A DNA stretch of 32,000 nucleotides from Delftia acidovorans NBRC 14950 (GCF_001598795.1 NZ_BCZP01000003.1:1-32000), one strand, 5' to 3'. Counted from the stretch's first letter, positions 8,786-28,078 are shown. Notes: generated by a model not told the origin, from the sequence alone. Made by a program: numbers and translations.

Positions 8786-9574
8786 ATGCCAGTCCTGCCT
8801 CCCCTCGCCTCAGACAACGCCGCCCCCACCATCGGCGCGGGCGCATCGACCCCGGCCTTCAGCCCTTTGTATCAGCAGATCAAGGGACTGATACTGCAAA
8901 GCCTTGAAGCAGGCGAATGGCGGCCCGGCGAACTGATTCCCAGCGAGATGGAGCTGGCCGCGCGCTTTCGCGTGAGCCAAGGCACGGTGCGCAAGGCCAT
9001 CGACGAGCTGGCCGCGGAGAACCTGGTGATGCGCCGCCAGGGCAAGGGCACCTTCGTGGCCACCCACGCGGCCCAGCATGTGCAGTACCGCTTCCTCAAG
9101 CTGCAGCCCGACGGCGGCGACCAGCAGGGCGAGGGCCGTGCCGAGCGCCGCATCATCGACTGCCGGCGCCTGCGCGCATCGGCGGACGTGGCGCGCGGCC
9201 TGGCGCTGCGCAGCGGCGACGCCGTGATGCATGTGCGCCGCGTGCTGTCGTTCTCCGCAATCCCGACCATTTTGGAAGACATCTGGCTGCCGGGCCACGC
9301 CTTCAAGGGCCTGACCGCCGAGCAGATGTCCGCCTACCAGGGCCCCACCTACGCCATGTTCGAGCTGGACTACGGCGTGCGCATGGTGCGCGCCGACGAA
9401 AAGATCCGCGCCGTCCTGCCCGAGGCAGAACAGGCCCTGCTGCTGGATGTCCCCAGCACCACGCCCCTGCTGAGCGTGGAGCGCACCGCTTACACATACA
9501 ACGATGTTCCCATGGAGTTACGCCGTGGCCTGTACCGCACCGACACCCATCACTACCGCAACGCGCTGAGCTGA
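8786..9574 (+). CDS. GntR-family (HutC/UTRA subfamily) transcriptional regulator
   Basis: A winged HTH (LYQQIKGLILQSLEAGEWRPGELIPSEMELAARFRVSQGTVRKAIDELAAENLVMRRQGKGTFV) is followed by a UTRA-like effector domain. No obvious RBS, so the start is uncertain. Confidence 0.85.
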   Translation: MPVLPPLASDNAAPTIGAGASTPAFSPLYQQIKGLILQSLEAGEWRPGELIPSEMELAARFRVSQGTVRKAIDELAAENLVMRRQGKGTFVATHAAQHVQYRFLKLQPDGGDQQGEGRAERRIIDCRRLRASADVARGLALRSGDAVMHVRRVLSFSAIPTILEDIWLPGHAFKGLTAEQMSAYQGPTYAMFELDYGVRMVRADEKIRAVLPEAEQALLLDVPSTTPLLSVERTAYTYNDVPMELRRGLYRTDTHHYRNALS

Positions 9575-9631
9575 ACGATCCGTTCCCCAGAGAAGCGGGC
9601 GAAAATACGCAATTCCCAGCAAAGCTGTTTT

Positions 9632-9646
9632 TATTGCATTGCAATA
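9632..9646. promoter_or_regulatory. Perfect 15-bp palindrome tattgca-t-tgcaata upstream of sdhC, a candidate operator/promoter element
   Basis: Read directly, 63 nt upstream of the sdhC ATG in an AT-rich patch (ctgtttttattgcattgcaatagaattttgc). A TAGAAT -10-like hexamer at 9645-9650 overlaps its right arm. Confidence 0.4.
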
Positions 9647-9708
9647 GAATTTTGCATCGCCGCCCCTGAGCGATTACGAAGCAGTTACATCCACGAAAGT
9701 ACCCTGCC

Positions 9709-10131
9709 ATGACTGAGCAAGCCAAAAAGCGGCCAGAGTTCCGCAACATCAACTTCTTCAAGGACCTCCCCACCTACCGGTTGCCGCCGGCCGGCATCGT
9801 GTCCATCCTGCACCGCATCAGCGGCCTGCTGATGTTCATCCTGCTGCCTTTCATCCTGTGGATGATGGACATGTCGCTGACTTCGGAGATCTCCTTCGAC
9901 GGCTTCACCTCGGTTTTCGCGGGTCCCTTCGGATGGTTCCTCAAGCTCGTGTGCCTGGCATTGATCTGGGCCTACCTGCACCACTTTTGCGCCGGCGTCC
10001 GCCACCTGTTCATGGATGTGAACCACCACGCCGTCAACAAGCAGTTCGGCAAGTCCTCGGCCCTGGTGGTGCTGGTCCTGAGCGTTGGCCTGACCCTGAT
10101 CCTGGGTGCCAAGCTGTTCGGCCTGTACTGA
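9709..10131 (+). CDS. sdhC: Succinate dehydrogenase cytochrome b556 subunit
   Basis: 140-aa membrane protein with the HRISG motif. It is the first gene of the sdhCDAB order. Confidence 0.9.
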   Translation: MTEQAKKRPEFRNINFFKDLPTYRLPPAGIVSILHRISGLLMFILLPFILWMMDMSLTSEISFDGFTSVFAGPFGWFLKLVCLALIWAYLHHFCAGVRHLFMDVNHHAVNKQFGKSSALVVLVLSVGLTLILGAKLFGLY

Positions 10132-10566: not shown

Positions 10567-12372
10567 ATGAGCTACTCCAAAGCAAACATCACCAAGCGCA
10601 AGTTTGACGTCGTCATCGTCGGCGCTGGCGGCTCCGGCCTGCGTGCCGCGCTGGAACTGTCGCGCGCCGGCCTGTCCGTGGCCTCGTTGTCCAAGGTCTT
10701 CCCCACGCGCTCGCACACCGTGGCTGCGCAGGGCGGCGTGTCCGCTTCGCTGGGCAACATGAGCGAGGACAACTGGCACTACCACTTCTACGACACCATC
10801 AAGGGCTCCGACTGGCTCGGCGACCAGGATGCGATCGAGTTCATGTGCCGCGAAGCGCCCAACGTCGTGATCGAGCTGGAACACTTCGGCATGCCGTTCG
10901 ACCGCAACCCCGACGGCACCATCTACCAGCGTCCCTTCGGCGGCCACACGGCCAACTACGGTGAAAAGCCCGTGCAGCGAGCCTGCGCCGCGGCCGACCG
11001 TACCGGCCACGCCATGCTGCACACGCTGTACCAGCAGAACGTCAAGTCCAAGACCAACTTCTTCGTGGAGTGGATGGCGCTGGACCTGATCCGCAACACC
11101 CAGGGCGACGTGGTCGGCGTGACCGCCATCGAACTGGAAACCGGCGACCTGTACGAGCTGCACGCCAAGGCCGTGCTGCTGGCCACGGGTGGCGCTGGCC
11201 GCATCTTCCAGGCATCGACCAATGCCTTCATCAACACCGGCGACGGCCTGGGCATGGCTGCACGCGCAGGCATCCCGCTGCAGGACATGGAGTTCTGGCA
11301 GTTCCACCCCACTGGCGTGGCCGGCGCGGGTGTGCTGCTGACCGAAGGCTGCCGTGGCGAAGGCGCCATCCTGCTCAACAGCGAAGGCGAACGCTTCATG
11401 GAGCGCTACGCTCCCACGCTGAAGGATCTGGCACCGCGCGACTTCGTGTCCCGCTCCATGGACCAGGAAATCAAGGAAGGCCGTGGCTGTGGTCCCAACA
11501 AGGACTACATCCTGATGAAGCTGGACCACCTGGGCGCCGACACCATCCGCAAGCGCCTGCCTTCGGTGGAAGAGATCGGCCACAACTTCGCCAACGTGGA
11601 CATCACCAAGGAACCGATTCCCGTGGTGCCCACCATCCACTATCAGATGGGCGGCATTCCCACCAACATCAACGGCCAGGTCGTGGTGTGGGACGGTCAG
11701 CAGAACAATGTGGTCAATGGCCTCTATGCCGTGGGCGAATGCTCCTGCGTGTCGGTGCACGGCGCCAACCGCCTGGGCACGAACTCGCTGCTGGACCTGC
11801 TGGTCTTCGGCAAGTCGGCCGGCAAGCACATCGTGCAGTTCGTCAACGGCTTCGGCGACCACAAGGCCGTGCCGGCCGATGGCTCGGAGCGCACGCTCAC
11901 GCGCCTGAACCAGCTCGACGACTCCAAGGAAGGCACCTACGCCCAGGACCTGGCTGGCGACATCCGCGCCACCATGCAGCAGCATGCCGGCGTGTTCCGC
12001 ACGCAAAAGAGCATGGACGAAGGCGAAGTCAAGATCAACGCCATCCGCGAACGCGTGGGCTCCGTGACCCTCAAGGACAAGTCCAAGGTCTGGAACACCG
12101 CCCGCATGGAAGCGCTGGAAGTGGACAACCTGATCGAAGTGGCCCAGGCCACCATGATCTCGGCCGCTGCCCGCCACGAATGCCGCGGCGCCCACACCGT
12201 GTACGACTACGAGCATCCTGCCGACCACGCCGAGTTCCCGCTGGGCCGCAATGACAAGGAATGGCTCAAGCACACCCTGTGGTACAGCGCCACCAACAGC
12301 CTGGACTACAAGCCCGTGAACCTGAAGCCCCTCACGGTGGACAGCGTGCCGCCCAAGGTCCGCACGTTCTAA
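10567..12372 (+). CDS. sdhA: Succinate dehydrogenase flavoprotein subunit
   Basis: 601 aa. FAD-binding FDVVIVGAGGSGLRAAL, the covalent-FAD histidine context SHTVAAQGG, and the HGANRLG motif. Confidence 0.97.
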   Translation: MSYSKANITKRKFDVVIVGAGGSGLRAALELSRAGLSVASLSKVFPTRSHTVAAQGGVSASLGNMSEDNWHYHFYDTIKGSDWLGDQDAIEFMCREAPNVVIELEHFGMPFDRNPDGTIYQRPFGGHTANYGEKPVQRACAAADRTGHAMLHTLYQQNVKSKTNFFVEWMALDLIRNTQGDVVGVTAIELETGDLYELHAKAVLLATGGAGRIFQASTNAFINTGDGLGMAARAGIPLQDMEFWQFHPTGVAGAGVLLTEGCRGEGAILLNSEGERFMERYAPTLKDLAPRDFVSRSMDQEIKEGRGCGPNKDYILMKLDHLGADTIRKRLPSVEEIGHNFANVDITKEPIPVVPTIHYQMGGIPTNINGQVVVWDGQQNNVVNGLYAVGECSCVSVHGANRLGTNSLLDLLVFGKSAGKHIVQFVNGFGDHKAVPADGSERTLTRLNQLDDSKEGTYAQDLAGDIRATMQQHAGVFRTQKSMDEGEVKINAIRERVGSVTLKDKSKVWNTARMEALEVDNLIEVAQATMISAAARHECRGAHTVYDYEHPADHAEFPLGRNDKEWLKHTLWYSATNSLDYKPVNLKPLTVDSVPPKVRTF

Positions 12373-20396: not shown

Positions 20397-21269
20397 ATGT
20401 CCGCACTGCCGCCCCTGGAACTCAAGAACGCCCATGCCTGCTTCGGCGGCGCACAGCGTTTCTACGAGCATTTCTCCGCCGAGATCGGCCTGAACATGAA
20501 GTTCTCGGTCTTCCTGCCGCCCAAGGCCGTGGCCGGCGAGAAGGTGCCTGCCGTGCTCTACCTGGCCGGGCTGACCTGCACCGAAGAGACCTTCATGACC
20601 AAGGCCGGCGCCCAGCGCCTGGCCGCCGAGCTGGGCATTGCGCTGATCGCGCCCGACACCAGCCCGCGCGGCGCAGGCCTGCCCGGCGAGGCCGATGCCT
20701 GGGACTTCGGTGTGGGCGCGGGCTTCTACCTGGATGCCACCACCAAGCCCTGGGCACTGCACTGGCGCATGGAAAGCTATCTGCTGGGCGAGCTGCTGCC
20801 GCTGATCGCCGCACGCCTGCCCATTGACGCGCAGCGGCTGGGCATCTTCGGCCACTCCATGGGCGGCCACGGCGCGCTCACGCTGGCGCTGCGCCATCCG
20901 GGCCGCTTCAGGAGCCTGTCGGCCTTCGCGCCCATCGCCAACCCCGTCAACTGCCCCTGGGGCCAGAAAGCCTTCTCAGGTTATCTGGGCGATGACCGCA
21001 AGGCCTGGGAAGCGCATGACGCCAGCTGCCTGATGGCCGCCCAGACCGAGGCGCCCTACCCGGCCGGCATCCTCGTGGACCAGGGCCTGGCCGACAAGTT
21101 CCTGATCGAAAAGCAGCTGCTGCCCGAAGCCTTCGAGGCCGCCTGCGCCCAGGCCGGCCAGCCGCTGACGCTGCGCCGCCACGGCGGCTACGACCACGGC
21201 TACTACTTCATCCAGAGCTTCATTGATGACCATCTGCGCCACCATGCAGAGCAGTTGAGTACCCCCTGA
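20397..21269 (+). CDS. fghA: S-formylglutathione hydrolase (esterase D family)
   Basis: 290 aa. Typical FGGAQRFYEHFS...MKFSVFLPP N-terminus and the serine nucleophile motif GHSMGGHGAL. GAGGA RBS before ATG 20397 (the ORF track opens earlier, at 20340). Confidence 0.93.
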   Translation: MSALPPLELKNAHACFGGAQRFYEHFSAEIGLNMKFSVFLPPKAVAGEKVPAVLYLAGLTCTEETFMTKAGAQRLAAELGIALIAPDTSPRGAGLPGEADAWDFGVGAGFYLDATTKPWALHWRMESYLLGELLPLIAARLPIDAQRLGIFGHSMGGHGALTLALRHPGRFRSLSAFAPIANPVNCPWGQKAFSGYLGDDRKAWEAHDASCLMAAQTEAPYPAGILVDQGLADKFLIEKQLLPEAFEAACAQAGQPLTLRRHGGYDHGYYFIQSFIDDHLRHHAEQLSTP

Positions 21270-21362
21270 GGCGCTTCGCGCCTTCCCCCTGAAAGGGGGA
21301 CGACAGCCTCGCTGCGGGGCGGCCCTTGCTTGCTGTCCCTGGGTTGGAGCGCGCCAGTTTCC
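21262..21362. repeat. REP-like intergenic repeat, copy B, which contains the fghA stop codon
   Basis: Same family as 20166-20300. It contains hairpins aggcgc-ttc-gcgcct and tccccct-gaa-aggggga (21284-21300). The TGA of the conserved ccccctgagg block (21267-21269) is the fghA stop. Confidence 0.8.
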
Positions 21363-21396
21363 AAGATTGGGCACAAGACCATAGAACGGGCGCGTC

Positions 21397-22242
21397 TCAT
21401 CCAGGCATGCGCCCCGCGCGCATGTCCTGCGCAATCCGCTCCAGTACCTGCGGCAGGTCCTTCACGCTGGCGATCACGTGGTGGGCGCCGGCTGCGCGCA
21501 GCTTGGCCTCGGCGCGGGCTACGCGCTCGCGCACTTCTTCGGCGGGGGCGGCGGCCAGTTCGGCGGGGGAGTAGCCGACTTCGTTGCCGGACAGGGTCAG
21601 GCCCACGGTCCACATGCCGGCGTTGCGGCCTTCCTCGATGCCGGGCACGGTGTCGTCCACCTTCACGCAGGCGCGCACGTCGCCAATGCCCAGCGCCAGC
21701 ACATTGGCCAGCGCCATGAAGGGGCCTGGGCGGCCGCCTGCGGCCATTTCATCGCCGGCCACCACATGGTCGGGAGCCAGGCCGTTGGCCGCTGCCTGCG
21801 GCAGCAGCTGGTTCAGGACTTCACGCGGATAGCCCGAGCACGAGCCCACCTTCAGGCCCTGCGCGCGCAGCCAGCCCAGCAATTCAGGCGCGCCTTCGAT
21901 GGGTGCCGAAAACTCACCGACCTTGGCGATCTGCATGGGCATGAAGCGGGCGTAGATGGCATCCACGTCGGCGTCGCCAGGCGGCTGGCCGAAGGCCTTG
22001 TGCCATTGCGCGCGGATGCCTTCGTTCTGCAGCAGCTCGTGGATGTGCTGCCACTTGGACAGGCCCATGGGGCCGCGAGCCTGGGCCAGGGTGATGGTGA
22101 TGCCGAAGCTGGCAAAGGCCTCGACAAAGATCTGCGTGGGCGCCAGCGAGCCGAAATCGACCAGGGTGCCGGCCCAGTCGAAGATGACGGCCTGCAGCGG
22201 CGACAGATCGGCGGCGGCGGTGGAGACGGTGGTGTGGTTCAT
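21397..22242 (-). CDS. phnX: Phosphonoacetaldehyde hydrolase (phosphonatase), HAD superfamily
   Basis: LQAVIFDWAGTLVDFGSLAPTQIFVEAFASFGITITLAQARGPMGLSKWQHI is the PhnX N-terminus (nucleophile Asp in DWAGT, Schiff-base Lys in GLSKW). Start is ATG 22242 or TTG 22257. Confidence 0.9.
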   Translation of the reverse strand: MNHTTVSTAAADLSPLQAVIFDWAGTLVDFGSLAPTQIFVEAFASFGITITLAQARGPMGLSKWQHIHELLQNEGIRAQWHKAFGQPPGDADVDAIYARFMPMQIAKVGEFSAPIEGAPELLGWLRAQGLKVGSCSGYPREVLNQLLPQAAANGLAPDHVVAGDEMAAGGRPGPFMALANVLALGIGDVRACVKVDDTVPGIEEGRNAGMWTVGLTLSGNEVGYSPAELAAAPAEEVRERVARAEAKLRAAGAHHVIASVKDLPQVLERIAQDMRAGRMPG

Positions 22243-22296
22243 GGTGTTTATTGACAAGGAAAGAGGTTCAAACAGAAGAGGGCCGCACGCGCCTGT

Positions 22297-23385
22297 TCAT
22301 TCCAGCGTGCGGATGAAATTGCGCCCGCGCGGGCCGGATGCGGCCGACTGCAGCAGCTGCTGCCACTCATCCCCGGGCACGCCGTAGTGGGCGGGATCGG
22401 TGGCCACGCCCAGGCTTTCGAGGAAGTTGCGCAGGCGCTGCACGGCCAGCTCGCCCGTGGCGGCATCGAAGATGGACAGCAGGGCCGCGTCGGCCTGGTC
22501 GTCGGCGCCCAGGGCCATCTCCAGCACCAGCGGCAGGCTGAACGAGCAGGCAATGCCGTGGGCCACGCCATGGCGCAGCGTGATGTCGTAGGACAGCGAA
22601 TGCGCCAGCGCCGTGCGGGTGTTGGAGAAGGCCAGGCCGGCCATCAGGGCTGCCTCGGCCATGCGGCTTCGCAGCGGCAGGCTGCCCAGGTCCTGCATCA
22701 GCGCGGGCAGCGTGGCCAGGGTGCGCCGCGCGGCGCCCACGGCCAAGGTGGTGGAGACGGGATTGCGGTGCCGGTTCCAGATGGACTCCAGCGCATGCGA
22801 CAGCGCATCCAGCCCCGAGGCCAGCGTGGCGCCGGCCGGCAGGCTTTGCATGAGCTGCGCGTCGATGATGGCGGCCTCGGGCCAGGTCCAGTGCTGGTGC
22901 AGCGAGTGCTTGCGGCCAGCGGCCTGGTCCCAGATCGTGGCCCAGGGCGTGACCTCGCTGCCCGTGCCGGCCGTGGTGGGAATGGCGATCAGCGCCTTGT
23001 GGCCTGCGGCCGGCAGGGCCAGCCCCTGCTCCAGGGCCTGCAGCAGTTCGCCGAAACGCCGCGTGGGCGTGGCGCACATCAGCGCCTTGGCCGAGTCGAT
23101 GGCGCTGCCGCCGCCCAGGGCCACGATGCACGGGACCTCGGCGTATTCGCGGTGCACGCGGTCATACAGCGGGGCCAGCCACTGCACATCGGGGTTGGGC
23201 GCAATGCCGTCCACCACGCCGCGCAGCTGGCTGCCCAGCCGTTGGCGCAGCTGCTGCACCAGGCCCAGGGATTCGGCCTCGGGAAACGTCACCAGCAGGC
23301 AGTCGCGCCCGGCCAGCAGCTCGGGCAGGCGGTCCAGGCGGCCAGGGCCGGCATGGATGGCAACGGGGTTGTGATAGGTCCACAC
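22297..23385 (-). CDS. Iron-containing (group III) alcohol dehydrogenase; candidate 2-hydroxyethylphosphonate / phosphonoacetaldehyde oxidoreductase
   Basis: Motifs ALGGGSAIDSAKAL and LAHSLSYDITLRHGVAHG (Fe-ADH metal histidines). Start chosen at GTG 23385, with AAGGA 7 nt upstream. It sits between phnE and phnX in one operon. Confidence 0.8.
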   Translation of the reverse strand: MWTYHNPVAIHAGPGRLDRLPELLAGRDCLLVTFPEAESLGLVQQLRQRLGSQLRGVVDGIAPNPDVQWLAPLYDRVHREYAEVPCIVALGGGSAIDSAKALMCATPTRRFGELLQALEQGLALPAAGHKALIAIPTTAGTGSEVTPWATIWDQAAGRKHSLHQHWTWPEAAIIDAQLMQSLPAGATLASGLDALSHALESIWNRHRNPVSTTLAVGAARRTLATLPALMQDLGSLPLRSRMAEAALMAGLAFSNTRTALAHSLSYDITLRHGVAHGIACSFSLPLVLEMALGADDQADAALLSIFDAATGELAVQRLRNFLESLGVATDPAHYGVPGDEWQQLLQSAASGPRGRNFIRTLE

Positions 23386-23432
23386 AAATCGGTCCTTTGA
23401 ATGAAACGGGGGCGCCGGTAAAAGCGCAGCCC

Positions 23433-24278
23433 TCAATGGCGGGTGCCCTGCTGGATGCGGCGGCGCAGCCAGTGGGAGACGAGATCGGCGGCGATCACCA
23501 TCACGGTGATGACCACGATGCAGGTGGCCGTCTCCTGGTAGCGGAACAGCTTGAGGCTGCCGACCAGCTCGAAACCCAGCCCGCCCGCGCCCACCATGCC
23601 CAGCACCGTGGCCGAGCGCAGGTTGACCTCGAAGCGGTAGAGCACGACCGCAATCCAGGCCGTGATGGCCTGCGGTATCACGCCGAAGACGATGAGCTGC
23701 AATTGCGTGGCGCCTGCGCTGCGCAGGGCCTGCAGCGGGCCGTCGTCGATCTCTTCGATGCTCTCGGCGAAGAACTTGCCCAGCATGCCCATGCCATGCA
23801 GGGCCAGGGCCAGCACGCCGGGAAACGGCCCCAGGCCCACGGCCGAGACAAAGACCAGCGCCAGGATCAGCTCGTTGATGCTGCGCACCACGTTCAGGAA
23901 CTGCCGCGTGATGCGCCGCAGCCAGTGCCAGCCATGCAGGTTGCTGGCCGCGATGAAGGACAGCGGCAGCGCCAGCACCACGGACAGCAGCGTGCCCCAG
24001 ATGGCGATCTGCACCGTCTCCAGCGCGGGCGCCATCAGGCGCGGCAGCATGCTCCAGTCCGACGGCACGGAGCGCGCCACGAAGTCTGCGATCTGGGGCA
24101 TGCCTGCCGCCAGTTCACCCCAGCTCATCTGCGCGCCGCCCGCGCTCCAGTGCAGCACCCAGGCGATGGCCAGGGCCGCAGCCGCATAGCCGGTCCAGCC
24201 CAGGGCGCCATGGGGGCGCGGCGCGGTCCATTGCCAGCGGTCGCGCGGCTCGGGGCTCCAGGAATTGGCGCTGGTCAT
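23433..24278 (-). CDS. phnE: Phosphonate ABC transporter permease
   Basis: Multi-TM protein with the PhnE-type EAA region (MLGKFFAESIEEIDDGPLQALRSAGATQLQLIVFGVIPQ). AGGAGG lies 6 nt upstream of ATG 24278, which overlaps the phnC stop (TGATG). Confidence 0.88.
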   Translation of the reverse strand: MTSANSWSPEPRDRWQWTAPRPHGALGWTGYAAAALAIAWVLHWSAGGAQMSWGELAAGMPQIADFVARSVPSDWSMLPRLMAPALETVQIAIWGTLLSVVLALPLSFIAASNLHGWHWLRRITRQFLNVVRSINELILALVFVSAVGLGPFPGVLALALHGMGMLGKFFAESIEEIDDGPLQALRSAGATQLQLIVFGVIPQAITAWIAVVLYRFEVNLRSATVLGMVGAGGLGFELVGSLKLFRYQETATCIVVITVMVIAADLVSHWLRRRIQQGTRH

Positions 24279-25156
24279 CACAGTCCTCCTGCGGGCGCGC
24301 TGGCCCGCATCCACGAGGCAGGCACCGGCGCCTGCGCATGCAGGCCGGCAGGCCCTATGGCCGCCGTGCCCGGAGGTGTGTCCGGCTCTGCGCCCTGCCC
24401 TGCGCCTTGCCCTGCAGTGGGCTGCGCATGGTAGATGGCCTGCAGCGCGGCCTCGTCCAGCGCCTGCGGCGATCCGTCAAAGACCATGCGGCCCTGGGCC
24501 AGGCCCAGCACACGGTCGCCGAACTCCCGCGCGTAGTCCACCTGGTGCAGGTTGCAGACCACGGCAATGCCCAGCTCGCGCGTGGCATCGCGCAGGTACT
24601 GCAGCACGCTGCGCGCGGTCTTGGGGTCCAGGCTGGCCACGGGCTCGTCGGCCAGGATGACCTGGGGCTGCTGGGCCAGCGCGCGGGCAATGCCCACGCG
24701 CTGCATCTGCCCGCCCGACAGCGCCTCGGTGCGTTCCAGCGCCTTGTGGGCCAGGCCCACGCGCTCCAGGCACTGGTCGGCCAGGCGGATATCGCTTTCG
24801 CGGAACAGCTGCAGCACCGAGGCCAGGGTGCCGGTCTGGCCCAGGCGCCCGGTCAGCACGTTCTTGCGCACCGACAGGCGCGGCACCAGGTTGTGGTGCT
24901 GAAAGACCATGGCCACATGGCGAGCCAGCTCGCGCCGGCTGTGCCTGCCGCCGCCCAGCATCAGGTCCATGCCGCCCACCTCCAGCGTGCCGCTGTCGGC
25001 GCGGGCCAGGCCGTTCATGCAGCGCAGCAGCGTGGACTTGCCGGCCCCCGACAGGCCCAGCATGACGACGAACTCGCCGGGCTGCACATCCAGGTCGATG
25101 CCATGCAGCACGTGGTTGCTGCCATAGCTCTTGCGCAATTGGCGAATGCGGATCAT
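24278..25156 (-). CDS. phnC: Phosphonate ABC transporter ATP-binding protein
   Basis: Walker A GLSGAGKST, ABC signature LSGGQMQRVGIARAL, Walker B ILADEP. It has a ~45-aa Gly/Ala/Pro-rich C-terminal tail. The start overlaps the phnD stop (ATGA). Confidence 0.9.
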   Translation of the reverse strand: MIRIRQLRKSYGSNHVLHGIDLDVQPGEFVVMLGLSGAGKSTLLRCMNGLARADSGTLEVGGMDLMLGGGRHSRRELARHVAMVFQHHNLVPRLSVRKNVLTGRLGQTGTLASVLQLFRESDIRLADQCLERVGLAHKALERTEALSGGQMQRVGIARALAQQPQVILADEPVASLDPKTARSVLQYLRDATRELGIAVVCNLHQVDYAREFGDRVLGLAQGRMVFDGSPQALDEAALQAIYHAQPTAGQGAGQGAEPDTPPGTAAIGPAGLHAQAPVPASWMRASAPAGGL

Positions 25157-26040
25157 TTCATGCTCCCCAGGTCGAGCTTCAGGGCCTTGGCCGTCTGGCG
25201 TACCACGTCGTAGGCCTTGTCATCCGTGGCCGCGAAGCCGTCGAGCACACCCTGGTCGCCCCAGGGCAAGTCCTTGACCTCGGCCAGGGCCGCAGCCACC
25301 TTCTGCTTGGTGCCGGCGTCCAGGCTCTTGCGCCAGGTCATGGGCGACTCGGGGATGGGCTGGGAGCGCCAGACGATCTGGAAGTCCTCGCGCTTGACCA
25401 GGCCCTTGCTCACGGCCGAGTCGAAGATGCGGTCGGCCACGGCCGCCGCATCCACCTTGCCGTTGGCCACGGCCATGATGCTGGCGTCGTGCGAGCCCGA
25501 GAAGATCACGCGCGAAAAGCCCTTGTCCGCATCGAATCCCTCGGCCATCAACCCGGCCTTGGGAAACAGGTGGCCCGACGCCGAGGTCGGGTCCACAAAG
25601 GCAAAGCTGCGGCCCTTGAGATCGGCCACGCTGGCCGGACCCTTGTCCTTGCGGGAGATCACCATGCTGTGGTACGCGCTCTTGCCCGTCTTCTTGGTCA
25701 CGGCCACCGCAAAGGCCTCGGCGCCCGCCACCTGGCTGGCCAGCACGTACGAGAACGGGCCGAGGAAGGCGATGTCGATCTTGTTGGAGCGCAGCGCCTC
25801 GATCACGCCGTTGTAGTCATTGGCCACGAAGGGCCGCACCTTCATGCCGGTGCGGGTGGCCAGCTGGTCCATGACCTGCTGGCTGGCGCGGATCATGGCC
25901 TGCGCGTCCTCCGAGGGGATCAGGCCCACGCGCAGCTCGGCGGGCTGGGCAAAGGCGGCAGTGGTAGCGGTGGTGGCGGTGGCGGCCAGGGCCAGCACGG
26001 CTGCGGCATGGCGCAGCCAGGTCTTGCGGTTCATCTTCAT
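25153..26040 (-). CDS. phnD: Phosphonate/phosphite ABC transporter periplasmic substrate-binding protein
   Basis: Signal peptide MKMNRKTWLRHAAAVLALAATATTATTAAFAQ, then a PhnD-like LRVGLIPSED...IDIAFLGPFSYV...FVDPTSASGHLFP. AAGGA lies 8 nt upstream of ATG 26040. Confidence 0.88.
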   Translation of the reverse strand: MKMNRKTWLRHAAAVLALAATATTATTAAFAQPAELRVGLIPSEDAQAMIRASQQVMDQLATRTGMKVRPFVANDYNGVIEALRSNKIDIAFLGPFSYVLASQVAGAEAFAVAVTKKTGKSAYHSMVISRKDKGPASVADLKGRSFAFVDPTSASGHLFPKAGLMAEGFDADKGFSRVIFSGSHDASIMAVANGKVDAAAVADRIFDSAVSKGLVKREDFQIVWRSQPIPESPMTWRKSLDAGTKQKVAAALAEVKDLPWGDQGVLDGFAATDDKAYDVVRQTAKALKLDLGSMK

Positions 26041-26221
26041 GGGAGCGTTCCTTTGCATCAGGTCAGGCACATCGGCAGATCGGTGGATCCGTGAATCGCC
26101 GGCCAAATCGCCAGGCGGGTGGGGATGGCTGAATGCTAGGAGCGACATATTTCTGCCATGTGAAAGTTTCAGAATCGGTTTTGACAGCATCCATAGACAA
26201 AACCTTGAGATACCGACTTTC

Positions 26222-27073
26222 GTGAGCAACGCCCGCTACCGCGCCTTCATCGCCGTCGCCCACCACGGCAGCCTCAGCGCCGCCGCCCGCGCACTGGGCG
26301 TGAGCCAGCCCACCATCTCCACCCAGATCGCCACGCTGGAGCGCCAAAGCCAGATCGAGCTGTTCCACCGCCGCGGCTACCGCATGACGCTCACGGGCGC
26401 AGGCGCCAGACTGCTGCCCATGGCGCAGAAAATCATGGCGCTGGAGGCCGAGGCCGAATTCTTCCTGCGCGACTCGGGGCAACTGCACCAGGGCGAGCTC
26501 AAGATCGGCGCCGTGGGGCCCTTCCATGTGATCGAAATGGTGGCCGCCTACCGCGCACGGCATCCGGGCATGCAGTTGTCCATCCGCATGGGCAACTCGC
26601 AGCAGGTGCTGGCCGACCTGGAACGCTACGACACCGACGTGGCCGTGCTCGCCGGCCTCTACGACCGCCCGGAGCTGCTGGCACGCGAGTACGCGCGCCA
26701 CGCCATCGTGCTGTTCGCCCATGTGGCCCATCCCTTCGCGCGGCGCAGCGAAATCGCGCTGTCCGAACTGCAGGGCCAGCCTTTGCTGCTGCGCGAGCAC
26801 GGCTCGACCACGCGCACCGCGCTGGAATCGGTGCTGCAGGCCGCCGGCGTGCAGCCGCGCACCGAACTGGAGATCGGCAGCCGCGAAGCCATACGCGAAG
26901 CCGTGGCGCGCGGCCTGGGACTGGGCGCCGTGTCCGAAGCCGAATTCATCCCCGACCCGCGCTTTCGCCCGCTGCGCATCGCGGGCGACCCGGCCAGCAC
27001 CACCACCTATGTCTATTGCATGCGCGAGCGCAGCGACAGCCTGCTGGTGAGGTCTTTTCTGGAGGCGGTTTGA
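26222..27073 (+). CDS. LysR-family transcriptional regulator, divergent from the phosphonate operon
   Basis: HTH RYRAFIAVAHHGSLSAAARALGVSQPTISTQIATLE. The only plausible start is GTG 26222. Divergent arrangement with phnD, with a 181-bp shared control region. Confidence 0.8.
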   Translation: MSNARYRAFIAVAHHGSLSAAARALGVSQPTISTQIATLERQSQIELFHRRGYRMTLTGAGARLLPMAQKIMALEAEAEFFLRDSGQLHQGELKIGAVGPFHVIEMVAAYRARHPGMQLSIRMGNSQQVLADLERYDTDVAVLAGLYDRPELLAREYARHAIVLFAHVAHPFARRSEIALSELQGQPLLLREHGSTTRTALESVLQAAGVQPRTELEIGSREAIREAVARGLGLGAVSEAEFIPDPRFRPLRIAGDPASTTTYVYCMRERSDSLLVRSFLEAV

Positions 27074-27103
27074 GGGCCGCGCCGGGCCACCTCGGCCCCC
27101 GCC

Positions 27104-28078
27104 TCAGCCCTCCACCCTGATTCCGCGCGCCTGGATCAGCCGGGCCCACTTCGCCCGTTCATCGCGCATGAAGGCGTCAAAGCGCTGCGGCGTCCCCCCT
27201 CCATCCTCTGCGCCGAACTCTTCGAGCTTGGCCACCACATCGGGCATGGCCAGGATGCGGTTGACGTCCGCATTGATGCGGGCCACCAGATCGGCGGGCA
27301 TTCTTGCGGGGCCCACCAGGCCGAACCAGATGCTCGCGTTGAACCCGGAATAGCCCTGCTCCGCCACGGTGGGAATCTCCGCGAAGGCCTTGGCGCGCTT
27401 CATTCCCGTCTGAGCCACGGCATGGACTTTTCCGCCCTTGATGAAGGGCGCCGCCGTGGTCATCCCCTCGAACGCGTAGTCGATCTGGCCGCCCAGCAGA
27501 TCCGTCATCACGTTCGACGCGCCCTTGTACGGGATATGGAGCGCGGACACCGCCGCAGTCTGCTCGAACAGCGCCAGCGCAAGGTGCTGGGCCGACCCCG
27601 TGCCCGAGGAGCCGAAGCTGACCTCCCCCGGCTTTTGCTTCAATGCGGCCAGCAGGCCCTGCATGGTGGCGGAAGCCTTGGGGCTGGCAACCAGGACCTG
27701 CGGGGTCTGGCCCACCAGGGCGATGGCGGAGAAGTCCCGCTCCGGCGAGAAGCCGAGCCTGGGGTTGAGCGCAGGGGCAATGCCCAGGGCATTGATGTGG
27801 CCCATCATGAGCGTCTGCCCATCGGGCGCGGCCCTGGCGGCCTCGGCAGCGGCAATCAGCCCCGCCGCCCCTGGCCGGTTCTCGACGATGACGGGAATGG
27901 CCCACAGCTGGTTGAGCCGGTTGGCGATGATCCGCGCCAGGATGTCCGTGCCGCCGCCTGCCGAGAAGCCGACGAGGATTTTGACCGGGCCCGCCGGCGG
28001 CCTGGCCTGTGCAAAGCCCGGATGGGCATGCAGGGCGGTGGCTGCGGCGGCCGAGGTCAGGAACTGTCTGCGTTGCAT
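27104..28078 (-). CDS. Bug-family (TctC-like) tripartite tricarboxylate transporter substrate-binding protein
   Basis: Tat-like signal MQRRQFLTSAAAATALHA, then the Bug signature VKILVGFSAGGGTDILARIIANRL...VENRPGAAG. Confidence 0.88.
   Translation of the reverse strand: MQRRQFLTSAAAATALHAHPGFAQARPPAGPVKILVGFSAGGGTDILARIIANRLNQLWAIPVIVENRPGAAGLIAAAEAARAAPDGQTLMMGHINALGIAPALNPRLGFSPERDFSAIALVGQTPQVLVASPKASATMQGLLAALKQKPGEVSFGSSGTGSAQHLALALFEQTAAVSALHIPYKGASNVMTDLLGGQIDYAFEGMTTAAPFIKGGKVHAVAQTGMKRAKAFAEIPTVAEQGYSGFNASIWFGLVGPARMPADLVARINADVNRILAMPDVVAKLEEFGAEDGGGTPQRFDAFMRDERAKWARLIQARGIRVEG

What the first reader, a model, noticed from the sequence alone, without database searches (positions are those of the whole stretch)
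21397..27073. Phosphonate operon phnDCE-FeADH-phnX without phnW: candidate 2-hydroxyethylphosphonate uptake and oxidation pathway
Five tightly packed minus-strand genes (ATGA, TGATG, 47-nt and 54-nt junctions) encode a PhnD/PhnC/PhnE transporter, a group III iron alcohol dehydrogenase and phosphonatase PhnX, with a divergent LysR regulator. The established PhnX route needs PhnW (2-aminoethylphosphonate:pyruvate aminotransferase) to make phosphonoacetaldehyde, and no aminotransferase is present in or next to this operon. The only known phosphonate-linked Fe-ADHs I recall are biosynthetic phosphonoacetaldehyde reductases (PhpC-type), which make 2-hydroxyethylphosphonate (HEP). Run in reverse, the same chemistry would give HEP -> phosphonoacetaldehyde -> acetaldehyde + Pi, a catabolic route I do not recall being characterised. 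An alternative is that the ADH only reduces the acetaldehyde product.
Basis: inference. Interest (0 to 1): 0.62.

Follow-up and report, generated by a model that had tools for sequence, protein, structure and literature searches.

The report
Delftia hydroxyethylphosphonate uptake and breakdown operon

Summary
Five minus-strand genes, phnD-phnC-phnE, a group III alcohol dehydrogenase (ADH) and phnX, sit with the stated ATGA, TGATG, 47-nt and 54-nt junctions beside a divergent LysR gene.

Piazza et al. (Protein Sci, Sept 2026, PMC13576164) showed that a PhpC-type ADH from Paraburkholderia fungorum oxidises 2-hydroxyethylphosphonate (HEP) to phosphonoacetaldehyde. Its cluster has phnX and no phnW, and adding PhnX released phosphate. 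That enzyme had no appreciable activity on ethanol.

- The window's ADH passes the NCBIfam TIGR03405 cut-off.
- It is 48% identical to the tested enzyme and keeps all eight metal- and HEP-binding residues the paper names.
- The genome (Delftia, estimated 100% complete) has no detectable PhnW, PbfD, C-P lyase, PhnA, Phn-HD or PEP mutase.
- 42 of 50 related genomes carrying the cluster have no PhnW-like gene.

This copy differs from the tested cluster in two ways. It uses a PhnDCE ABC importer instead of an MFS carrier, and the gene order differs. Its PhnD has Ser where phosphite-binding proteins have a capping Tyr and E. coli PhnD has Asp.

This scan reached the same verdict earlier on other DNA.

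The parts
25153..26040 (-). phnD: periplasmic phosphonate-binding protein, 295 aa with a signal peptide (MKMNRKTWLRHAAAVLALAATA...). It is the predicted HEP-binding component.
   Evidence: PF12974 234 bits; TIGR03431 266.8 bits against a cut-off of 261.1. An AAGGAA ribosome-binding site lies 7 nt before ATG 26040. The nearest solved structures are the phosphite binders PtxB and PhnD1 (E 1.6e-45), but their capping Tyr (Te_PtxB Y208) is Ser232 here, and E. coli PhnD has Asp at this position. The IPESPM motif is invariant in 71 of 71 cluster-linked orthologues.
24278..25156 (-). phnC: ABC transporter ATPase, 292 aa, with a roughly 45-aa low-complexity C-terminal tail.
   Evidence: TIGR02315 304 bits against a cut-off of 266. 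Its start overlaps the phnD stop as ATGA.
23433..24278 (-). phnE: ABC transporter permease, 281 aa from ATG 24278.
   Evidence: TIGR01097 296 bits against a cut-off of 217. It overlaps the phnC stop as TGATG.
22297..23385 (-). phpC-type (group III, pf00465) alcohol dehydrogenase, 362 aa, GTG start preceded by AAAGGA. It is the predicted NAD-dependent HEP dehydrogenase (HEP to phosphonoacetaldehyde). NCBI's naming rule would call it 'PsrA'.
   Evidence: TIGR03405 475 bits against a cut-off of 423.7. It is 48% identical (E 6e-100) to the characterised P. fungorum PhpC, WP_074772540. It keeps D193, H197, H262 and H276 (metal) and K159, T258, Y266 and R353 (HEP). In the tree it falls in a well-supported clade whose 12 members all have the phnDCE-ADH-phnX context.
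21397..22242 (-). phnX: phosphonoacetaldehyde hydrolase (phosphonatase), 281 aa. It is the C-P bond-cleaving step.
   Evidence: TIGR01422 328 bits against a cut-off of 220. It is the only match over that cut-off in the genome. The DWAGT nucleophile motif and the GPMGLSKW lysine motif are visible in the sequence.
26222..27073 (+). Divergent LysR-type regulator, 283 aa, GTG start. It is the predicted substrate-responsive activator of the operon.
   Evidence: HTH_1 plus LysR_substrate domains. TIGR03339 (AEP-catabolism-associated LysR) scores 326.7 bits, just under its cut-off of 341.1. A divergent orthologue is present in nearly all related loci.
26041..26221 (.). 181-bp divergent control region with two conserved blocks. 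Block 26188-26211 is LTTR-box-like: an ATCTATAG-type dyad in relatives that is degenerate here. Block 26131-26174 is a likely phnD promoter or activation site and includes the TTTC-N8-GAAA dyad at 26150-26165.
   Evidence: Alignment of 20 intergenic regions; coordinates. The sigma-70 consensus scan found nothing, as can happen with an activator-dependent promoter. The functions of these blocks are inferred, not shown.

Best explanation
The unit is a self-contained, LysR-controlled operon for uptake and hydrolytic breakdown of 2-hydroxyethylphosphonate (HEP).

1. PhnD binds HEP in the periplasm and PhnC/PhnE import it (inferred).
2. The PhpC-type ADH oxidises HEP with NAD+ to phosphonoacetaldehyde. 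This is shown for a homologue that is 48% identical and inferred here.
3. That reaction lies thermodynamically towards HEP. PhnX pulls it forward by irreversibly hydrolysing phosphonoacetaldehyde to acetaldehyde and phosphate. PhnX family membership is shown; the coupling is shown for the homologue.
4. Acetaldehyde enters central metabolism (inferred).
5. The divergent LysR protein probably senses HEP and activates phnD-X from the shared 181-bp region (inferred).

The genome has no detectable PhnW, PbfD, C-P lyase, PhnA or PhnZ-type enzyme. This operon therefore appears to be the organism's only phosphonate route, and it does not serve 2-aminoethylphosphonate.
For: - Gene identities pass curated cut-offs.
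- Biochemistry of the homologous system (PMC13576164): P. fungorum PhpC oxidises HEP with kcat 0.36 per s and KM 1.36 mM. It prefers NAD and is Zn-activated. [quoted passage not shown] With PhnX added, phosphate was released.
- The window ADH is 48% identical to that enzyme over 359 residues, and all eight named ligand residues are conserved. These residues are invariant across the clade.
- Own genome, estimated 100% complete: PhnW best 77 and 123 bits against cut-offs of 401 and 361; PbfD 135 against 633; no PhnJ, PhnA or Phn-HD; PEP mutase 129 against 320. The best PhnW-like hit is a BhcA-like aspartate-glyoxylate aminotransferase.
- The operon architecture is conserved in about 68 of 80 loci.
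- Of 50 genomes carrying the cluster, 6 have PhnW over the cut-off, 2 more have a match of about 300 bits, 3 have PbfD and 6 have PhnJ.
- PhnD lacks both the phosphite-capping Tyr and the Asp found at that position in E. coli PhnD.
Against: - Nothing has been measured for this protein or this organism.
- Identity to the tested enzyme is only 48%, and the tested enzyme comes from a differently organised cluster (phnX-phpC-MFS).
- The tested PhpC is a modest HEP dehydrogenase (kcat/KM 270 per M per s) and works about 250-fold better in the reductive direction.
- A close relative of the tested enzyme, B. cenocepacia PsrA, has a lipid-peroxidation phenotype and no link to phn genes.
- PhnD's ligand is unknown, and its nearest solved relatives bind phosphite or methylphosphonate.
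- The absence of genes rests on a 91-contig draft with 2851 withheld bases.
Confidence: 0.85

Rival explanations
1. The operon serves 2-aminoethylphosphonate (AEP) after all. PhnDCE would import AEP, an unrecognised aminotransferase or oxidase elsewhere would make phosphonoacetaldehyde, PhnX would cleave it, and the ADH would only detoxify the acetaldehyde product to ethanol.
For: - The LysR regulator is closest to the AEP-catabolism-associated LysR family (TIGR03339, 326.7 bits).
- NCBIfam annotation links phnX to AEP catabolism.
- The genome has class V aminotransferases with weak PhnW similarity.
Against: - No PhnW or PbfD reaches even a third of its cut-off, and the best hit is BhcA-like.
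- 42 of 50 genomes carrying the cluster have no PhnW-like gene.
- The tested homologue had no appreciable activity on ethanol, and AEP inhibits it.
- The ADH keeps the Lys/Arg clamp and the Tyr that the paper's model predicts hold the phosphonate group.
- PhnD has Ser where E. coli PhnD has Asp.
- The LysR score is below the family cut-off.
Confidence: 0.05
2. The ADH is a general aldehyde reductase of the PsrA/YqhD type that removes toxic short-chain aldehydes. Its place in the phn operon would be incidental, or would serve only to protect the cell from phosphonoacetaldehyde or acetaldehyde.
For: - NCBIfam now names TIGR03405 'iron-containing alcohol dehydrogenase PsrA'.
- The B. cenocepacia psrA mutant accumulates peroxidation products and is complemented by E. 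coli YqhD.
- Some Burkholderiales carry a LysR-ADH pair with no adjacent phnX (loci L086, L090, L095-L097, L099, L105).
Against: - PsrA's enzymatic activity was never assayed.
- In the window the ADH lies between phnE and phnX, separated from them by 47-nt and 54-nt gaps, and that position is conserved across more than 15 genera.
- The window enzyme belongs to a separate, well-supported clade in which every member has the phn context.
- Without an enzyme that makes phosphonoacetaldehyde, PhnX would have no substrate in this genome.
Confidence: 0.05
3. The true substrate is a different hydroxy-phosphonate, or HEP released from a conjugate such as a phosphonoglycan or phosphonolipid fragment. 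Free HEP would then be only a proxy substrate.
For: - The paper argues that environmental HEP occurs mostly bound in polysaccharides.
- Related clusters sit beside phospholipase C or phosphodiesterase genes (L106; L107).
- PhnD's specificity is untested.
Against: - PhnX is specific for phosphonoacetaldehyde (established knowledge of the family), so the alcohol must be a 2-hydroxyethyl phosphonate.
- No esterase or glycosidase is part of the conserved operon.
- PhnD-type binding pockets are small.
Confidence: 0.05

Closest known systems
Degradative PhpC + PhnX cluster of Paraburkholderia fungorum (HEP dehydrogenase WP_074772540; Piazza et al., Protein Sci 2026, PMC13576164)
   Same: - Same enzyme pair: a pf00465/TIGR03405 ADH plus PhnX.
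- A divergent LysR regulator, no phnW or pbfD in the cluster, and no biosynthetic genes.
- All eight metal- and HEP-binding residues are conserved.
   Different: - Only 48% identical, and in a different, well-supported clade.
- The transporter is a PhnDCE ABC importer rather than an MFS carrier, and the order is transporter-ADH-phnX rather than phnX-ADH-transporter.
- P. fungorum also has a separate AEP cluster; no such genes were detected in this genome.
PbfG-type HEP catabolic clusters (pf00107 Zn-dehydrogenase; Actinomycetota, Planctomycetota, Bacteroidota and others; same paper)
   Same: Same pathway logic: HEP to phosphonoacetaldehyde, then PhnX or PhnY-PhnA. These clusters also often lack phnW.
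   Different: The dehydrogenase has an unrelated fold and is about 300-fold more efficient on HEP. It is not present here.
Biosynthetic phosphonoacetaldehyde reductases PhpC/FomC/DhpG/AglG of Streptomyces (EC 1.1.1.309)
   Same: Same protein family and same reversible reaction.
   Different: Those enzymes work reductively inside pepM/ppd biosynthetic clusters. This genome has no PEP mutase, and the ADH is paired with a C-P hydrolase and an importer.
PhnW-PhnX phosphonatase pathway for 2-aminoethylphosphonate (Salmonella phnRSTUVWX, Pseudomonas aeruginosa, Bacillus cereus)
   Same: Same final step (PhnX) and same intermediate. LysR-type, substrate-responsive control is known for some of these operons.
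   Different: The entry enzyme is an alcohol dehydrogenase, not an aminotransferase, and the substrate is HEP, not AEP. PhnW was not detected anywhere in the genome.
[quoted passage not shown] 2022, PMC9113575)
   Same: Same NCBIfam family, TIGR03405. A close relative from B. arboris is 49% identical to the window ADH and keeps all the HEP-binding residues.
   Different: PsrA is not linked to phn genes. It is defined by a mutant phenotype, and its activity has not been assayed.

Membership tests
Degradative PhpC-type HEP dehydrogenase (pf00465; NCBIfam TIGR03405) | Whole-protein score over the curated TIGR03405 cut-off | tested here: met
   475.1 bits against a cut-off of 423.7.
Degradative PhpC-type HEP dehydrogenase (pf00465; NCBIfam TIGR03405) | Metal ligands Asp191, His195, His260, His274 (P. 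fungorum numbering) | tested here: met
   D193, H197, H262 and H276 align with them in the BLASTP alignment to WP_074772540. They are invariant in 27 family members.
Degradative PhpC-type HEP dehydrogenase (pf00465; NCBIfam TIGR03405) | Phosphonate-binding residues Lys157, Arg349, Thr256 and the PhpC-specific Tyr264 (Phe in sulfoacetaldehyde reductases) | tested here: met
   K159, R353, T258 and Y266 align with them. The residue roles come from an AlphaFold3 model in the paper, not from a crystal structure.
Degradative PhpC-type HEP dehydrogenase (pf00465; NCBIfam TIGR03405) | Clustered with a phosphonoacetaldehyde-consuming enzyme (phnX or phnY-phnA) and not with pepM/aepY | tested here: met
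   phnX starts 54 nt downstream. No PEP mutase was found in the genome.
Degradative PhpC-type HEP dehydrogenase (pf00465; NCBIfam TIGR03405) | NAD+-dependent oxidation of HEP to phosphonoacetaldehyde | not testable with these tools
   This needs the purified enzyme. It has been shown only for the homologue that is 48% identical.
PhnX phosphonoacetaldehyde hydrolase (HAD superfamily, TIGR01422) | Score over the equivalog cut-off | tested here: met
   328.1 bits against a cut-off of 220, full-length match 1-251 of 251.
PhnCDE phosphonate ABC importer | All three components score over their equivalog cut-offs and are adjacent | tested here: met
   TIGR03431 266.8 against 261.1; TIGR02315 304.2 against 266.1; TIGR01097 295.7 against 216.7. 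The genes overlap as ATGA and TGATG.
PhnW-PhnX pathway for 2-aminoethylphosphonate | Presence of AEP:pyruvate aminotransferase PhnW (or the oxidase PbfD) in the cluster or elsewhere in the genome | tested here: not met
   Best scores are 77 bits (TIGR02326, cut-off 400.8), 123 bits (TIGR03301, cut-off 360.8) and 135 bits (TIGR03329, cut-off 632.8) in a genome estimated 100% complete.
PtxB/PhnD1 phosphite-binding proteins | Strictly conserved capping tyrosine (Te_PtxB Y208) that makes the P-H...pi contact and excludes larger R groups | tested here: not met
   Ser232 aligns with Y208. The role of the Tyr is taken from PMC5700983.
AEP-catabolism-associated LysR regulators (TIGR03339) | Score over the subfamily cut-off | tested here: not met
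   326.7 bits against a cut-off of 341.1. It is a near relative that falls just outside the family.
PsrA/YqhD-type stress aldehyde reductase | Role in removing lipid-peroxidation aldehydes, with a gene not linked to phosphonate genes | tested here: not met
   The gene context is a phn operon. The stress phenotype itself cannot be tested with these tools.

The most novel reading that the evidence does not exclude
The PhnD of this operon founds a HEP-specific subfamily of phosphonate-binding proteins. It would derive from PtxB-like phosphite binders by replacing the capping Tyr with Ser in the invariant IPESPM motif. Delftia, Comamonas and many other Burkholderiales would then be HEP-only phosphonate specialists, which would imply that HEP rather than AEP is the phosphonate these soil and freshwater bacteria meet. 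A corollary is that B. cenocepacia 'PsrA' is really a HEP/phosphonoacetaldehyde enzyme and that the NCBI family name misdescribes its members.
Probability: 0.45. Interest if true: 0.4.

Novelty: new member of a known kind. Interest (0 to 1): 0.25.

Why it matters
The result confirms that a reader working from sequence alone deduced a real pathway. HEP catabolism through a PhpC-type dehydrogenase plus PhnX was proven at the bench only in September 2026.

For annotation, it shows that 'PsrA' alcohol dehydrogenases and 'AEP catabolic' phnX labels in Comamonadaceae, Oxalobacteraceae and Alcaligenaceae most likely denote a HEP operon.

Three modest points go beyond the paper:
- This clade uses an ABC importer whose binding protein has a distinctive pocket residue, which can be tested by ITC.
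- Most genomes carrying the cluster have no detectable AEP route or C-P lyase, so they appear to be HEP specialists.
- The regulator is a candidate HEP sensor that could be useful as a biosensor part.

Tried and rejected
- **Sequencing runs.** I tried look-up of sequencing runs to look for RNA evidence of co-transcription.
- **Paper supplements.** Tables S1 and S2, which list the clusters, are not held. I could not check whether Delftia is listed.
- **Order-level sample.** A sample of 300 genomes for TIGR03405 was spread too thinly: 9 hits over the cut-off, one of them the window's own genome. I replaced it with searches of 50 named genomes that carry the cluster.
- **Promoter scan.** The sigma-70 and terminator consensus scan found no promoter in 21200-27200 and no terminator after phnX.
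- **Achromobacter paper.** The glyphosate-phosphonatase paper (PMC11203657) describes a different cluster, hpnW-phnS-X-U-T, and is not relevant here.
- **Pho box.** A CTGTCA(C/T) half-site is present in distant relatives but degenerate in the window (CAGAAAT). I make no claim of Pho control.
- **Biosynthetic direction.** Rejected because the genome has no PEP mutase.
- **Phosphite uptake.** Suggested by PhnD's nearest solved structures, but rejected because the capping Tyr is absent.
- **Outgroup error.** My first outgroup choice picked the wrong ORF. I corrected it.
- **Structure prediction.** Not run. The tool returns no coordinates, so it could not test the geometry of the ligand pocket.

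Full report
**Observation**

ORF listing and Pfam/NCBIfam scans give the following genes on the minus strand:

| Gene | Coordinates | Family | Bits | Cut-off |
|---|---|---|---|---|
| PhnD | 25153-26040 | TIGR03431 | 266.8 | 261.1 |
| PhnC | 24278-25156 | TIGR02315 | 304 | 266 |
| PhnE | 23433-24278 | TIGR01097 | 296 | 217 |
| Group III alcohol dehydrogenase (ADH) | 22297-23385 | TIGR03405 (plus PF00465, PF25137) | 475.1 | 423.7 |
| PhnX | 21397-22242 | TIGR01422 | 328 | 220 |

A LysR-type regulator lies on the plus strand at 26222-27073 (GTG start). It scores 326.7 bits against TIGR03339, just below the 341.1 cut-off.

A 181-nt divergent control region separates phnD from lysR. Third-position G+C is 0.86-0.93 in all six genes, so these are real genes in a 66-70% G+C genome. 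No aminotransferase is in or next to the unit. The neighbours are an esterase and a TctC-family protein, both convergent with the unit.

**Organism and conservation**

The ADH is 94-95% identical to that of Delftia acidovorans MMO-42 and 83% identical to that of D. tsuruhatensis. The window is therefore from a Delftia.

A scan of one genome per species returned 80 loci. In about 68 of them, lysR is divergent from phnD-phnC-phnE-ADH-phnX in the same order. The genera include Delftia, Comamonas, Acidovorax, Orrella, Herbaspirillum, Janthinobacterium, Achromobacter, Alcaligenes, Variovorax, Roseateles, Mitsuaria, Pseudorhodoferax, Jeongeupia, Deefgea, Andreprevotia and Uliginosibacterium. The same operon sits on a 643-kb Comamonas antarctica replicon, where RefSeq annotates the ADH as 'psrA'.

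**What is known**

A full-text search found Piazza et al., Protein Sci 2026 (PMC13576164). The authors surveyed non-biosynthetic clusters containing phpC homologues. Most carried phnX or phnY-phnA without phnW or pbfD.

They expressed the PhpC of Paraburkholderia fungorum (WP_074772540) and showed the following:
- It oxidises HEP with NAD+ (kcat 0.36 per s, KM 1.36 mM).
- Zn2+ is the preferred metal.
- The equilibrium lies towards HEP.
- Adding PhnX pulls the reaction forward and releases phosphate.

Lockwood et al. 2022 had earlier noted that about half of phpC genes are not tied to biosynthesis.

**Is the window's enzyme the same kind?**

I recovered WP_074772540 from the protein collection as P0281 and compared it directly. 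Identity is 48% over 359 residues, E = 6e-100.

Every residue the paper names aligns with an identical residue in the window protein:
- Metal ligands D191, H195, H260 and H274 correspond to D193, H197, H262 and H276.
- The predicted HEP clamp K157 and R349, plus T256 and the PhpC-specific Y264, correspond to K159, R353, T258 and Y266.

These residues are invariant in all 27 family members I aligned. In a maximum-likelihood tree the window ADH falls in a well-supported clade (99/97) of 12 sequences, all with the phnDCE-ADH-phnX context. The Burkholderia/Paraburkholderia enzymes cluster apart from it in a separate well-supported group; P. fungorum PhpC itself was not in that tree, and I place it in that group by its similarity to these enzymes. 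The nearest solved structure is sulfoacetaldehyde reductase 6JKO/6JKP, the template the paper also used.

The P. fungorum cluster itself is lysR divergent from phnX-phpC-MFS (likewise). The window is therefore an architectural variant, with an ABC importer and the opposite enzyme order.

The window's genome is 6.63 Mb in 91 contigs, with estimated completeness 100%.

| Enzyme | Family | Best score (bits) | Cut-off |
|---|---|---|---|
| PhnW | TIGR02326 | 77 | 400.8 |
| PhnW/AepZ | TIGR03301 | 123 | 360.8 |
| PbfD | TIGR03329 | 135 | 632.8 |
| PhnJ (C-P lyase) | PF06007 | none | 25 |
| PEP mutase | TIGR02320 | 129 | 319.6 |
| PhnA | TIGR02335 | none | 407.6 |
| Phn-HD | TIGR03276 | none | 214.6 |

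The best PhnW-like protein is a BhcA-like aspartate-glyoxylate aminotransferase. There is one PhnX and one TIGR03405 ADH in the genome, and both are the ones in the window. On this evidence the operon is the genome's only recognisable phosphonate route, and it cannot depend on PhnW.

Across 50 named genomes that carry the cluster:
- 6 have PhnW over the cut-off, and 2 Achromobacter genomes score about 300 bits.
- 3 have PbfD.
- 6 have PhnJ.
- None of the 18 genomes from Delftia, Comamonas, Acidovorax and Orrella, plus one record labelled Pantoea, has PhnW or PbfD.

These genomes are related to one another, so the counts describe the sample and are not a statistical test.

**The transporter**

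PhnD's closest solved relatives are the phosphite binders Te_PtxB, Pm_PhnD1 and Ps_PtxB (E 1e-45 to 1e-40), ahead of E. coli PhnD (5e-27). Bisson et al. 2017 (PMC5700983) showed that a strictly conserved capping tyrosine (Te_PtxB Y208) makes the P-H...pi contact and sterically excludes larger substituents.

In the alignment that position is Ser232 in the window protein. E. coli PhnD has Asp there; my recollection, not checked here, is that this Asp contacts the amine of AEP. The motif IPESPM is invariant in all 71 cluster-linked PhnD orthologues and in a Vibrio pelagius phpC-phnDCE cluster. A Leisingera phpC-phnDCE-phnA-phnY cluster has Asp instead.

I infer, without proof, that this PhnD subfamily has an open, neutral pocket suited to a hydroxyethyl group.

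**Regulation**

Aligning 20 intergenic regions shows two conserved blocks:
- An LTTR-box-like dyad next to lysR at 26188-26211. It is ATCTATAG-like in relatives and degenerate in Delftia.
- A block at 26131-26174 that contains a TTTC-N8-GAAA dyad and a TAGCAT-like element.

A Pho-box-like half-site is visible in distant relatives but not convincingly in the window. The sigma-70 scan found nothing. I infer HEP-responsive LysR activation by analogy with AEP-responsive LysR control of phosphonatase operons. This is untested.

**Rivals**

- *AEP operon with the ADH acting on acetaldehyde.* This is contradicted by the genome-wide absence of PhnW and PbfD, by the homologue's lack of appreciable ethanol activity, and by the conserved phosphonate clamp.
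- *General stress aldehyde reductase.* This rests on the B. cenocepacia PsrA mutant phenotype. That enzyme was never assayed, and the window gene is embedded in a conserved phn operon.
- *Biosynthetic role.* Excluded because there is no PEP mutase.
- *Phosphite uptake.* Disfavoured because the capping Tyr is missing.

**Verdict**

The pathway is now published, so this is a new, uncharacterised member of a known kind: an ABC-importer variant from a different enzyme clade. This scan reached the same conclusion earlier on other DNA, and I found the paper independently.

What remains of interest is modest: the PhnD pocket signature, the apparent HEP-only lifestyle of this clade, and the probably misleading 'PsrA' family name. 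Confidence that the operon works as stated is about 0.85. Interest is 0.25.

Noticed in passing
L086, L090, L095, L096, L097, L099 (ADH near 9001-10065, or 4504-5586 in L090) and L105:4891-7068: Several Burkholderiales carry a TIGR03405-type ADH beside a phn-type LysR gene with no adjacent phnX or transporter. They include Delftia sp. PS-11, Comamonas aquatilis and Burkholderia arboris, and this is the context of B. cenocepacia PsrA. All HEP-binding residues are conserved. The B. arboris enzyme is 79% identical to the Paraburkholderia sediminicola enzyme, which sits in a phnX-phpC-MFS cluster, and is its sister in the tree. 'PsrA' may therefore be a HEP/phosphonoacetaldehyde enzyme whose PhnX partner is encoded elsewhere or has been lost.
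   Followed up: partly
window 26131-26174 and the aligned intergenic regions of L046, L051, L053, L068, L071: Distant relatives have a CTGTCA(C/T) or TTGTCAT half-site, resembling half a Pho box, in the conserved phnD promoter block. In Delftia the same position reads CAGAAAT. Whether the operon is under Pho control as well as LysR control is open.
   Followed up: partly
L106:147-2297 and L107:1-4806: In Comamonas antarctica and Paraburkholderia sediminicola the HEP cluster lies next to phosphocholine-specific phospholipase C and phosphodiesterase genes. That neighbourhood resembles a phosphate-scavenging region. The window's copy instead lies between formaldehyde-detoxification genes and a Bug/enolase-superfamily unit.
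   Followed up: no
L060, L062, L063, L064, L070, L083 (about 11050-12000; 7428-8258 in L063): Achromobacter and Alcaligenes copies have a second LysR paralogue (48-54% identical to the window's) immediately downstream of phnX. Pseudorhodoferax soli (L074:361-3874) carries a second, inverted phnDCE-lysR set upstream.
   Followed up: no
P0100 (618 aa, JGI contig of 67.8 kb): One metagenomic relative is called as a single PhnE-ADH fusion protein (PF00528 plus Fe-ADH), about 90% identical to the window ADH. It could be a real fusion across the 47-nt spacer or a gene-calling or frameshift artefact.
   Followed up: no
window 24278-24420 (C-terminal end of phnC): PhnC carries a roughly 45-residue Pro/Ala/Gly-rich tail beyond the ABC domain that is poorly conserved in relatives. 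The tblastn matches for PhnC end earlier in most loci.
   Followed up: no
L082 (record titled 'uncultured Akkermansia sp.') and L094 (record titled 'Pantoea sp. 18069'): Two records with titles from unrelated taxa carry Comamonadaceae/Burkholderiales-like copies of the operon (58% and 74-75% ADH identity). These are more likely bin contamination or mislabelled cultures than horizontal transfer.
   Followed up: no
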